DNA of 64,000 nt from Octopus vulgaris (taxonomy: Eukaryota). Under the pieces are notes generated by a model. That model saw nothing but the letters and a program-made list of their open reading frames with translations, ran no database searches and had not been told where the DNA came from. The stretch is from assembly GCA_951406725.2 (NCBI GenBank), contig OX597822.1, positions 16,244,001-16,308,000 of the forward strand, written 5' to 3'. Shown one piece after another: positions 7,450 through 56,476 of the stretch (within the stretch, counting starts at the first letter, position 1; each line of letters opens with the position of its first letter). A program made the translations under genes and the position numbers.

Positions 7450-10050
7450 ACAAAAATGGTCAGAATTTATATTTTTACAAATACGAATTTTTCATTTCAA
7501 AAGTAATAAATTTCAATACATCAAATGAATCTAAGTGAATTTAGTTTTTATTTTAATTCGATCTCCTTTTTAACACTATTAAACAATACTATGAATATAT
7601 ATAAATCTAGCCGAGAAAATAAACTAAGATAACGTACAAAAAGTACAAAAAGTACAGAATTTATAAAGTACAGAATTTCCACGAATCCTGCTAGTCTTTG
7701 AAATTATACCAGTTTACATGGTATATCCTTCCTTGCACTTGAAAGAGACTCAAACGCGTCACTTTAAACAGAATATAAAATATATTAATTTGAAAGTTAA
7801 TGTATTTACGGGATCAAGTGTTCAGAAACGTATATTGATATTTCTTGGAAGTAGAAATGTGCGTCACATCATCTTAGAACTTGTCATAAAGTGTATATCC
7901 ACCTTGTCAAAGAAATCCCTATATCTATATGAATAAGCTGAATATGGTTTGGAACTATTTGGAACAATTTCTCTTGCATGTATAACGGTTTTTGATCTGG
8001 AGAATATTTAAAATACTTAGTGTTCTGTTTCTTATTTTAAATCTCTGAATGAGATTGTACTGTTTTGGAAATGCATTTCAAATTCCATTTTTTGCAATAA
8101 TTTTATGAGATATTATGCGAACCATATTCAGGGTATGTGGAGTATGCTGCGCGTAGGTAGTCTTAGTGGACAAAAAGCTTCTGCTTTATCAAATATCTTA
8201 AAGTATTCTCCATAAAGGTCACAACTGTTTTTAATTCGCCATCAGAAACTCTCACGCCATTTTATAAGATCCATTCATTTTGACAGTTCTAAACCATGCC
8301 AAATTCATTACACTTATAATTAACGTCGAGATTTTAAAACATACTGAAAGACGGGAAGTTACTTCGAACTGACGATCATTTTTTTATTCCCATCGGCTGC
8401 ATAAAAATTTTTTTAAATAAGCTCAGGAATGGTGTAAGCATGGTATAAAGGGATTTCGCCGAAGTCCGCAACAAGTATTGCCCATTCATAACAAATTTCT
8501 TTTAATTTCAGGAAGCCTTTCCTGACTCAAAAGCATACATTTTCTTAGCAACAAACGCATAGTTTTAGGATAACGTGTCCACGTCTTCTTCCAAATCTTA
8601 TGTATTTCCATTAGAGTGACGTGTAAGTACAAACGTCTTCGTGCAAGGTCGGAGTCTTTTTTCTGCCTGTAGCTGGTGAAGTACTAAGCTTACAATAGAA
8701 GAGAGAATTATCAAGTAAGTGGTTGGCTCTTAATGAATTCCCATTGCCATTCCATCAAGGTACTTTCGGTTTTAGCAGACTTGAAGATAATATCGTTCCG
8801 GTTGCGGACTTTCTGCAGAGTTTTGAGAAAGATTTAATATCCTGCCACTAAGTTGCCATGTACAAAGCATAGAATAAATTATTGAGAAATAAGCTCAACT
8901 GAGTTTCGTTCATCCAAGCTGACTGTTTAGCGTGAATAAAACATAATTTGAAGTTGTTAAAAGCTTCATCGACCCTGTGTTAAAACGTTCAGTATCATCG
9001 ATCGAGGGTTCAAGGAAGGAGAACTTTAATTAAGTCTGTCGGGAGAAATAGAAATAAAGTCTCGTTTGTCGAACTTGCTTAGCTTCTATAATGAGGACGG
9101 TTTATTCAGTGTCCATGAGAGGGAGATGATCTATCCAACCCAACTTTCTCCCAAAATCTCTAGCTTTATTTCTCAAACTCCTCTTTCACACGCGTTCGCA
9201 AAATCAATTCTTTATCATTTCCCAGATTTTTAATATTCACTCCATTCTCATGAAGTAATTACGAAGAGACAGTTAGAACATTTACTCAGTAGTGGTAAAG
9301 AAACTCGTTTCCAAACATTAGAAATTCGTCTCCAAACTATATATTACCATTACAGCTTCACAATAGATACAATTTTAATTTAGGTCGAGAACCACTATAT
9401 CATCTGGATTCTGAATTTTATCTATATGCACAATATTTAAAGTCAGACGAAAAGTAGTTTAACCAACCAAATTTACTCCCGTAAAACAACTCAAAGTTAT
9501 TAATCTGTTATAACACTTTCTATCTTTCAATTTTCAATATTGATAGTAGAGACGCTCTTTGTTGAGAGGGTCGAAACTTCTCAGTGACTATTAGATTTCT
9601 CTGTATTCAATGGGATTGTTGATATTTTTCCTCACCGAACTGCTCTCCGTATCCATTGTTGTTTTCAGCATTTTCTCAGTTATTTAATATATCACTTAAT
9701 TCGCCACTCATTCAAAATCTGCTGATATTTTACTCTATGATTTCAGTGCATTTTACATTTGGCATCTCTTATCACTTTACTCTGTTATAAGACATTCGTT
9801 TTAGAATTGCACGCGTTTATTTCGTTCGGTTTCATATCATCACCAGCTTTTAAATTATTTATTTTTGTAATAGCTTTAGTAATTTTTTAAAAAATTCTAA
9901 ATCAGATATATTCACAGTAATTTTTTCTTGCCGTTGGTCTCAGGGAATGTAACTTTATTGAAACTATTTCTATATTCAGGTATTCTATGATCATATCTCG
10001 CTTGCTGAGATTAAAATATATATTAGCGTTAGTTTTGAGATCCTATCTCA
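7450..10050 (-). mobile_element. Degenerate Penelope-like element (RT, possibly GIY-YIG)
   Basis: Minus strand 8725-8760 reads DGMAMG then NSL across a frameshift (PLE-type GxAMGSPL); decayed WK.YVD.T near 8575-8595; NG.. near 8275; RF.EH-like remnant near 7820-7832; boundaries approximate. Confidence 0.6.
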
Positions 10051-10163
10051 GGGGAATGTATTTATCATCTTTTCCAGAAAGTGTTCTGATTTGTGTAATA
10101 TAGCAAACTGTATATATGTGTAAATAAGTATGTCTATGTGGTGCAATATCCTATCTATAGAAT

Positions 10164-10295
10164 TATATATATATATATATATATATATATATATATATAT
10201 ATATACATATACATATATATACATATATATATATATATATATATATATATATAGAGAGAGAGAGAGAGAGAGAGAGAGAGAGAGAGAGAGAGAGG
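10164..10295. repeat. (TA)n-(GA)n compound microsatellite
   Basis: Directly visible. Confidence 0.95.
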
Positions 10296-55175: not shown

Positions 55176-56320
55176 AAAACTTAGATAAAACTTAGATATG
55201 TTTCGACCAGAGATTGGTCCAGGCCATGTCTAACTTAATAGCACCACCTGATAGGATTATTCGAATCCTGTTTAAGTCAAGTTTTGTTCAAGTAGTGAGT
55301 TCTTGTTGGGTGAGTTGTATCCAGTTTTGTTCAAGTAGTGAGTTCTTGTTGGGTGAGTTGTATCCAATTATGGGTGGCTTGTCTGGTATTCTTTGAAGGA
55401 ATCTATCCAGACTCTGTTTGAAGTTGATGGGATCCTTTTCCTCTTTGATCTCCCTCGGGACAATGTTAAATAGGGCAGGGCCTGTTGAGGAAAAGAAATT
55501 ATGTTGCAGTGTACATGTATGTTGTGATCTTGAATTTGGCAGGGGACGTATAGCCCGTGGTCCAAGTCTCGGATAAACCTTGAAGCTAATGTTTAGGTCG
55601 TTTGGGCAAAGTTGGCGGTATATTTTCCACATCGTACAAATGATGTACCGCTCACGGCGACGCTGGAGGGAGTAACGTTTCAAGGCTTTAAGGCGATCCC
55701 AATAGTCGAGAGCAGCCATGCCTTCAATTTGTTTAGTGAGAGCCCTCTGGGGTGACTCAATTCTGGAGATGTTTTGTCTTGTGTGAGGAGACCACAGTGG
55801 GCAGCAGTATTCAAGGTGTGGCCGTACAAAGGATGAAAAAAGTGGTATGATGACACCTTGTTCTCTGGACCGGAAAGTTCTTAAGATCCAGGAACTCATC
55901 CTACGAGCTGTATCGACCTTCTTGTTGATGTGTGCACTCCAACTGAGATCGTCATCAACAATTACACCCAGGTCTCTGATATTGTTAGAGGCTGTGAGCG
56001 GTTCCCCTGAAGGAAGAGAGTATGGTTGTTTTAGTGAGGAATTTCTTCCAAAATGCATCAGCTCAAATTTTCCCTCATTCAGTTGCATTTTGTTTCTGTC
56101 TGCCCATTGACTCACAGCATATAGGTCAGACTGGAGTTGAGTTCGGTCTGCTTCTTCATTGACGATTTGCTGGAGCTTAGTGTCATCAGCGAATATTTTC
56201 ACTTTGCAGTGATGTACGACACTGGAAAGGTCGTTTACATAAATTATGAAGAGTAGCGGACCCAAAACAGTTCTCTGGGGAACACCGCTGGTGACTTTTG
56301 CTGGGTTTGAGTGGACTCCA
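55176..56320 (-). mobile_element. Young 5'-truncated CR1-clade LINE (RT C-terminal half plus 3' UTR)
   Basis: Uninterrupted ORF: VTSGVPQRTVLGPLLFIIYVND, KIFADDTKL, RDLGVIVD, FVRPHLEYCCPLWSP, SLQRRRER; 3' stem-loop gacca-atctc-tggtc and (atctaagtttt)2 tail; flanked by tacatac repeats. Confidence 0.93.
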
Positions 56321-56438
56321 TACATACATACATATATATATATATATATATATATATATATATATATGTATGTATACATGCTTGACCGTAAAATCCACAA
56401 GATTTTTTTTATTCTCTCTTTGTTTATTTACTCGTGTT

Positions 56439-56476
56439 CCTTTCTGTCGAAGAGCGCAGGCTCGGAATGCAAAAGG
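56439..56476 (+). ncRNA. Decayed minimal hammerhead motif (CTGACGAA-type)
   Basis: ccttt-CTGTCGA-a-gagc-gcag-gctc-GGAA-tg-CA-aaagg: stems I (5 bp) and II (4 bp) intact, catalytic core mutated. Confidence 0.5.

What the first reader, a model, noticed from the sequence alone, without database searches (positions are those of the whole stretch)
9540..56476. At least four, possibly six, unrelated hammerhead-bearing non-coding relics in 64 kb: a possible retrozyme-like layer
Seen: hammerhead-pattern motifs at 25813-25899(+), 32445-32505(-), 41181-41264(+) and 56439-56476(+), with weaker ones at 9540-9586(+) and 31985-32022(+). Stems I and II differ among them, but the conserved core is retained in three, and palindromic stem III (CAGCTG or CGATCG) recurs. 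Most lie roughly 40-200 bp upstream of a junction into (TA)n and have no adjacent ORF. Established: palindromic stem III allows minimal hammerheads to work as dimers. Inference: many non-autonomous ribozyme-carrying retroelement families have colonised (TA)n tracts in this genome, which could place cleavage sites in host pre-mRNAs.
Basis: partly seen in the sequence, partly recalled or inferred. Interest (0 to 1): 0.75.

Follow-up and report, generated by a model that had tools for sequence, protein, structure and literature searches.

The report
Penelope hammerhead tails, one variant core
Four of the six motifs are hammerhead-shaped tails left by cut-short copies of protein-coding Penelope-type jumping genes and are no denser here than elsewhere in the genome, but one family carries U instead of the usual A at a core position in about 99% of exact copies, which would likely slow or alter its self-cutting.

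Summary
Four motifs (25819+, 32504-, 41184+, 56444+) are real type I hammerhead (HHR) motifs, far above shuffles. The two weak ones (9540, 31985) are single-copy and at chance level. The four are not retrozymes. Each is the 3' end of a high-copy, 5'-truncated Penelope-like element (PLE) whose longer copies lead upstream into an RT/endonuclease frame: three Hydra-type (A, B, C), one Neptune-like (D). Three have the inverted segments typical of PLEs. Density (2 strict motifs in 64 kb) matches the genome (22 in 600 kb). Three of the four window copies are damaged. HHRs in PLEs, and Hydra elements in Octopus (TA)n, are published. One feature was not found in print: family D has the core CUGU-N-GA. 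Exact 35-mers number 8,017 with U6 against 91 with A6, while the free positions 7 and 17 vary. A true 359-bp tandem retrozyme exists elsewhere in the genome, not in this window; this scan had already noted it on other DNA. Cleavage, expression and host-gene context were not tested.

The parts
40029..41302 (+). Family A: 5'-truncated Hydra-type PLE (last codons of the endonuclease, about 1.1 kb of 3' non-coding sequence, HHR, end at (TA)8)
   Evidence: 87% over 1306 bp to a longer copy, L128; staircase 5' truncation, fixed 3' end; 2038 first-look candidates
41181..41264 (+). HHR A: stem I 3 bp, core 41184-41190, U.C at 10.1/11.1 (subfamily U.U), long stem II, GAAA 41250, palindrome CGATCG, predicted cut after 41261. 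The best-preserved of the four
   Evidence: compensatory changes across 12 family representatives
41300..41434 (-). Inverted piece of family A that includes sequence beyond the forward copy's 3' end
   Evidence: 92-95% to L128 and L288
25230..26060 (+). Family B: forward 3' part of an older Hydra-type PLE (3' limit approximate)
   Evidence: 703 candidates, 76-89% identity; collinear with L188, L190, L194
25817..25895 (+). HHR B: stem I 2 bp, core 25819-25825, palindrome CAGCTG; G10.1 of the family is A in this copy and stem II is decayed
   Evidence: family mostly GATTC...GAATC in 30 loci
24050..25236 (-). Inverted upstream segment of the same family B element, with a gap at about 24707-24933
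   Evidence: 73-83% to L190, L188
32256..32505 (-). Family C: 250-bp 3' end of a young Hydra-type PLE ending in (TA)26; HHR core 32504-32498; the 5' strand of stem I is lost at the truncation
   Evidence: 1270 candidates, 94-99% identity; family stem I CCAC/GTGG
32505..32678 (+). Inverted second copy of family C lacking CUGA; forms a 184-bp, 93% hairpin with the first
   Evidence: (I7)
56379..56576 (+). Family D: about 200-bp 3' end of a Neptune-like PLE ending in (TA)n
   Evidence: 2496 candidates; 85.6% to L171, which runs upstream into RT and GIY-YIG remnants
56440..56475 (+). HHR D: stem I CTTT/AAAG, core CUGUCGA (family U6 variant) at 56444-56450, extra A, stem II GAGC/GCTC; second core half mutated in this copy
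   Evidence: exact counts
9540..9586 (+). Hairpin with 3 of 6 core mismatches; not supported as an HHR (chance, or decayed beyond recognition)
   Evidence: single copy; chance level
31985..32022 (+). GAAACAGCTG without CUGANGA or UH; not supported as an HHR
   Evidence: single copy; chance level

Best explanation
The four real motifs are the pseudo-LTR hammerheads of four families of protein-coding Penelope-like retrotransposons, left as 5'-truncated and partly inverted 3' ends, likely by incomplete target-primed reverse transcription into (TA)n. Shown: family membership, upstream coding frames in longer copies, HHRs on both sides of intact ORFs in sister families, inversion, (TA)n ends, compensatory stem changes between families. 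Inferred from the literature: in the parent element two HHRs, 35-230 nt from each unit's 3' end, would pair through the palindromic stem III and cut the transcript to unit length. Because copying starts just downstream of the HHR, even a 200-300-bp abortive copy carries one, which explains the HHR-then-(TA)n pattern. The window copies are passengers decaying neutrally. The D lineage spread with a U6 core, so its ribozyme is likely slow, conditional or no longer needed for cutting.
For: Fixed 3' ends and staircase 5' ends. A: 579-aa frame, then 3' UTR, then HHR in L288; HHRs on both sides of a 542-aa frame in L290; sister families with HHR-ORF-HHR in 7 of 16 fetched loci (L290 makes 8), ORFs up to 984 aa, unit about 4.65 kb. 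C: 422-aa frame ending about 2.75 kb upstream of the HHR in L121; a sister family has 838-862-aa ORFs in 6 of 6 loci, flanked by two HHRs in 3 of 6. B: degenerate RT+EN collinear with the HHR in L191, EN remnant in L190. D: HHR downstream of 826-, 765- and 440-aa frames and upstream of a 927-aa frame (4 of 10 loci); RVT_1 E=4e-7. Stems: 95.5% of cells paired, 5 of 13 pairs with two-sided change, slid controls at most 51%. Density ordinary.
Against: B's coding link rests on 2 degenerate loci. No intact ORF of the exact A, B or C subfamily was found, only sisters. Pfam gave no family for the Hydra-type ORFs (0 of 4), and no tree was built. D copies are not randomly truncated: 15 of 26 unselected copies start 53-78 nt upstream of the core, which could mean a short RNA copied in trans. 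In 6 of 10 loci of D-related RT frames no HHR of the searched form was found. The representatives were hand-picked with a core-based pattern.
Confidence: 0.9

Rival explanations
1. The motifs are monomers of non-autonomous retrozymes (short ORF-less HHR units that form circular RNA and borrow a PLE enzyme).
For: Such a family exists in this genome: 359-bp tandem units, each with a canonical HHR, plus an inverted 5' arm, in (TA)n; 2611 candidates; no PLE protein match in 20 loci.
Against: No copy of it in the window. No short tandem arrays of A-D units in the 20-30 loci examined per family; longer copies run into coding frames.
Confidence: 0.04
2. Family D is partly non-autonomous: a roughly 200-nt solo-pLTR RNA that starts at a fixed point is copied in trans, perhaps because its U6 ribozyme leaves it uncut.
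For: 15 of 26 unselected copies start at -78 to -53 from the core, 7 are shorter, 4 longer; the 3' end falls 120-139 nt after the core start in 46 of 57 copies. The clustering holds across several subfamilies.
Against: The same sequences lie directly downstream of coding frames, so a preferred RT stop or a template switch explains it too. Local-alignment ends are imprecise in the pyrimidine tract.
Confidence: 0.25
3. The motifs act as host regulatory cleavage sites in pre-mRNA.
For: Of the order of 100,000 intact-core motifs genome-wide (rough scaling of 22 in 600 kb), so some will lie in introns. HHR A is near intact.
Against: B, C and D are damaged here; C is buried in its own hairpin. Single minimal HHRs did not cleave in vitro (PMC4209133). 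The long frames in the window that Pfam names are transposon fragments.
Confidence: 0.04
4. All six are chance matches in AT-rich DNA.
For: Fits 9540 and 31985.
Against: 0 of 150 shuffles reach the structured count; families of hundreds to thousands; covariation.
Confidence: 0.01

Closest known systems
Hydra-clade PLEs, including Hydra-1_Obim of Octopus bimaculoides (Craig et al. 2021, PMC8557442; seen: passages, section 11, supplement rows)
   Same: C-terminal EN without CCHH, CxCX5C linker, CxxC and CxH around E and N, DKT and RWK motifs, (TA)n target, detectable HHR, inverted 5' copies and tail extension.
   Different: Described as generally under 3 kb. Here units are about 4.65 kb (A's sister) and 6.3-6.8 kb (C's sister), with 1.1-3.5-kb 3' non-coding regions, Asn-rich inserts and HHRs with 35-60-nt stem II arms.
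Minimal and palindromic type I HHRs of metazoan PLEs (Cervera and de la Pena 2014, PMC4209133; seen: text parts 1-2 of 4, passages of supplement file 2)
   Same: HHR in the pLTR, mostly single motifs from truncated PLEs, opposite-strand pairs 100-700 bp apart, extra base after A9 (D), palindromic helix III, 2-bp helix I (B, as in D. virilis).
   Different: The core variant named in the text is U3-A8; the consensus given is CUGANGAH. Family D has CUGU-N-GA.
Neptune-clade PLEs (as characterised in PMC8557442)
   Same: Family D frames show DKG, a CX4CxxC linker and a GIY-YIG-type domain with CCHH-type residues.
   Different: U6 core; strong clustering of 5' ends. Neptune versus Nematis was not settled by a tree.
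Natural A6C hammerhead of phage Bcep176 (PMC3088659, PMC7151607; seen: passages)
   Same: A natural change at core position 6; reported as slow in Mg2+ and favouring Mn2+.
   Different: One phage sequence with C6, against U6 in more than 8,000 exact copies of an animal retroelement lineage; activity of U6 unknown.
Metazoan non-LTR retrozymes (PMC7229834, seen: passages; bioRxiv 10.64898/2026.07.22.740005, seen: part 1 of 5 and passages)
   Same: Type I HHR, kinship with PLE pLTRs. The 359-bp array at L220 fits.
   Different: Window elements are not tandem 150-450-bp ORF-less units.

Membership tests
Type I hammerhead motif | Core CUGANGA...GAAA...UH around three helices | tested here: met
   Met by families A, B, C. 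Window copy A intact; B lost G10.1; C lost stem I.
Type I hammerhead motif | Canonical A6 in family D | tested here: not met
   8,017 exact 35-mers with U6 (2278+3371+2368) vs 91 with A6 (30+61). C6 and G6 were not counted.
Type I hammerhead motif | Compensatory stem changes | tested here: met
   A and sister families: 5 of 13 pairs, 16 cells, 0 of 500 shuffles on cells and score, 40 of 500 on pair count. Not done for B, C, D.
Type I hammerhead motif | Self-cleavage | not testable with these tools
   Needs in vitro or end-mapping data.
Penelope-like element | Single RT+EN frame with HHR-bearing pLTR | tested here: met
   A, C, D; B only in degenerate form.
Penelope-like element | 5' truncation with inverted copies and (TA)n targets | tested here: met
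   Inverted segments in window A, B, C; staircase.
Hydra clade (A, C) | CxCX5C linker; CxxC and CxH around E/N; no CCHH; DKT and RWK | tested here: met
   Read from translations; DKT and RWK/KWK seen only in the intact sister ORFs.
Hydra clade (B) | Same motifs | tested here: inconclusive
   RT and EN remnants match family A peptides (E 1e-8, 2e-6) but the Cys motifs are degraded.
Hydra or Neptune clade | Placement in an RT phylogeny with reference elements | not tested
Neptune clade (D) | DKG, CX2-5CxxC linker, GIY-YIG with CCHH | tested here: met
   L346 translation; Pfam found only RVT_1 in it.
Non-LTR retrozyme | Tandem 150-450-bp units each with an HHR | tested here: not met
   No such array at any window motif; met by L220 outside the window.
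Non-LTR retrozyme | No coding capacity in the full unit | tested here: not met
   Longer copies of A-D carry coding frames.
Non-LTR retrozyme | Circular monomer RNA | not testable with these tools
   Only assembled contigs of runs of guessed type were available.

The most novel reading that the evidence does not exclude
A dominant Neptune-like lineage (roughly 45,000 copies) has kept the hammerhead fold under selection with a U6 core: only the two free core positions vary between subfamilies. The U6 ribozyme is a tuned, slow or metal-dependent cutter that leaves a 200-nt pLTR RNA intact long enough to be copied in trans, a stage between a coding PLE and a retrozyme or SINE.
Probability: 0.2. 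Interest if true: 0.6.

Novelty: new variant of a known kind. Interest (0 to 1): 0.3.

Why it matters
The finding as posed is ordinary: scattered HHR-then-(TA)n motifs are the expected debris of PLE insertion, and this window is average. What remains useful: (1) standard CUGANGA descriptors miss one of the most abundant HHR families of this genome; (2) the U6 lineage, beside A6 sister families with a near-identical stem II, is a natural test of whether PLEs need ribozyme cleavage to transpose, which is an open question; (3) young intact Hydra-type elements with two HHRs are good material for a PLE retrotransposition assay.

Tried and rejected
Rfam: no hammerhead among the 150 shown of 288 matches in the window (138 not shown), none at HHR A or at the L220 HHR; this says little, as these variants fall outside the models. 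The repeat finder was swamped by microsatellites. A test of whether 5' ends pile up at the cleavage site, as a trace of cutting in vivo, was inconclusive for A, C and a sister family because alignment ends follow subfamily divergence. L287 first seemed to link HHR C to an intact ORF; it is a separate neighbouring insertion. 9540 and 31985 had no informative match among about 315 stored loci; old diverged relatives could be missed by the genome search. RNA: no RNA holder listed on record for the L220 unit; contigs of four runs guessed to be RNA cover parts of it but cannot show strand, ends or circles. No RNA data were laid on the window, so whether it lies in a transcribed host gene stays open. 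Literature for U6: 'hammerhead'+'A6U' gave 2 listings whose titles concern other RNAs, not read; a five-term search gave 0; 'retrozymes'+'octopus' gave 2 listings. Supplement file 1 of PMC4209133, figures, bioRxiv supplements, Repbase/Dfam and subscription journals could not be seen and may hold the variant.

Full report
Setting. The window is G000:C9:16244001-16308000 in a 2.8-Gb genome with about 30 chromosome-sized contigs. I infer an octopus from these figures (recalled) and from the likeness of the elements to Hydra-1_Obim. The window is 33% GC with 55 runs of six or more TA. The long frames that Pfam names are transposon fragments: a DDE transposase at 3772-4634 and RT pieces at 43441-43956 and 55291-56427.

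Observation. All six strings are present. The bare descriptor gives 14 hits against 7.4 in 150 block-wise dinucleotide shuffles; structured versions give 2 or 3 hits against 0.007-0.5, never reached by a shuffle. The two weak motifs do not survive: each returned only itself genome-wide, a descriptor tailored to 9540 fires in 32 of 100 shuffles, and GAAA plus a C..G palindrome, which is all that 31985 offers, occurs 1.85 times per shuffle.

The four strong motifs are repeat families with 2038 (A, 41181), 703 (B, 25813), 1270 (C, 32445) and 2496 (D, 56439) first-look candidates (these are not copy numbers). Copies share the 3' end and break off stepwise at the 5' side.

Family A. The window element runs 40029-41302, with an inverted piece at 41300-41434. 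Longer copies continue into an RT thumb, an Asn-rich linker, a CxCX5C motif and an endonuclease ending CxxC..E..N..CxH. L288 has a 579-aa frame, the 3' region and the HHR in line; L290 has HHRs on both sides of a 542-aa frame. Sister families about 57% identical in protein show HHR-ORF-HHR in 7 of 16 fetched loci, five of them with intact 970-984-aa frames and units of about 4.65 kb.

Family C. The window holds 250 bp on the minus strand and an inverted 174-bp copy. L121 carries a 422-aa frame with the same Cys motifs ending about 2.75 kb upstream of the HHR, and L124 shares the region from the last codons onward. A sister family has 838-862-aa ORFs in 6 of 6 fetched loci, with two HHRs in 3 of 6.

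Family B. The window has a forward part from 25230 and an inverted upstream part at 24050-25236. L191 carries a degenerate RT and EN in line with the HHR, and L190 an EN remnant. This is the weakest link.

Family D. The window copy (56379-56576) is 85.6% identical to the 3' end of L171, which runs upstream into RT and GIY-YIG remnants. Of 10 loci fetched around related RT frames, 4 carry the D HHR (after frames of 826, 765 and 440 aa, before one of 927 aa); in 6 none of the searched form was found. Motifs point to Neptune.

The motifs match the Hydra description in PMC8557442 (section 11), whose supplement lists Hydra-1_Obim with a (TA)n target and an HHR. PMC4209133 already describes PLE HHRs as mostly single motifs from truncated copies, with opposite-strand pairs and palindromic helix III. 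Pfam named none of the 4 Hydra-type frames tested, and I built no tree, so clade calls rest on motifs.

Structure. Across 12 hand-picked representatives of A and its sisters, 95.5% of cells pair and 5 of 13 pairs change on both sides; slid controls reach at most 51%. In 664 kb of unselected DNA, 19 of 21 motifs found without requiring a palindrome have one (7 from one array). The window copies are worn: B has A for G10.1 and a decayed stem II, C lost the 5' strand of stem I and folds into its own hairpin, and D has a broken GAAA. Only A is near intact.

Density. The same strict descriptor finds 2 motifs in the window, 5 in 200 kb of flank and 17 in 400 kb of evenly chosen DNA (13 separate insertion sites in the 600 kb), and none in 6 shuffles of each set. 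The window is average. Scaled up, the genome holds of the order of 100,000 intact-core motifs.

The U6 core. In an otherwise fixed 35-mer, U6 occurs 8,017 times (U7 2278, A7 3371, C7 or G7 2368) and A6 91 times; reversed controls 0. Among 26 copies that came in unselected, 25 have U6; position 7 takes all four bases and position 17 is A 19, U 5, C 1, G 1. U6 also stands next to long coding frames, so the lineage transposed with it. A sister family with a near-identical stem II keeps A6, which suggests that U6 is derived. Ten D motifs in 600 kb scale to roughly 45,000 copies. A natural A6C variant is known and is slow in Mg2+ (PMC3088659, PMC7151607). I found no report of U6, within the limits listed under Tried and rejected. 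D copies also cluster in length: 15 of 26 start 53-78 nt upstream of the core. A fixed transcript start with copying in trans and a preferred RT stop both fit.

Retrozymes. One of the 40 evenly chosen stretches (L220, C1:20002097-20004768) holds a 359-bp tandem array with a canonical HHR per unit and an inverted 5' arm. The family has 2611 candidates, no PLE protein match in 20 loci and no copy in the window. It fits PMC7229834. Earlier notes of this scan describe a 359-360-bp family and 485-495-bp families in this genome; I did not check that they are the same sequence.

Verdict. They are PLE debris, not a retrozyme layer, and a role in host RNA cleavage has no support here. The U6 hammerhead is a modest, testable variant. 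Interest 0.3.

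Noticed in passing
L220:2097-4768 (G000:C1:20002097-20004768): 359-bp tandem non-coding array, one canonical type I HHR per unit (5 on +, 2 on -), inverted 5' arm, between (TA)n; 2611 candidates genome-wide: a non-LTR retrozyme with a PLE-type insertion shape.
   Followed up: partly
L280-L286, L292, L293: Young Hydra-type family with intact 941-984-aa ORFs and near-identical HHRs 4.65 kb apart; its stem III reads CGATTG, palindromic only with G.U pairs.
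   Followed up: partly
L328-L333: Sister of family C with intact 838-862-aa ORFs and units of 6.3-6.8 kb, more than twice the length described for the Hydra clade.
   Followed up: partly
L343, L344, L347-L349, L351: Neptune-like frames of up to 1008 aa (tandem spacing about 6.2 kb at L344) with no HHR of the searched form in the stretches fetched.
   Followed up: no
families A, B, C: Forward and inverted arms end at two different fixed 3' points (for C about +234 and +176 from the core), as expected if both cut strands prime.
   Followed up: partly
L207:9083(-), L208:2716(+), L257:6587(+): A family with core CCGAAGA (U4C) and palindrome GTAC in 2 copies, TTGAAGA in a third.
   Followed up: no
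window 200-1200: Stretch with many CpG and CGCG runs and two overlapping 114-122-aa frames without a Pfam family above cut-off; possibly a promoter or first exon.
   Followed up: no
window 3772-4634; 43441-44942; 55291-56427: Mariner-type transposase remnant and two non-LTR RT remnants; the second RT lies directly beside element D on the opposite strand.
   Followed up: partly
window 33653-34175 and 56626-57127: Two copies, 95-96% alike and in opposite orientation, of a 500-bp repeat, one right after the (TA)n end of element D.
   Followed up: no
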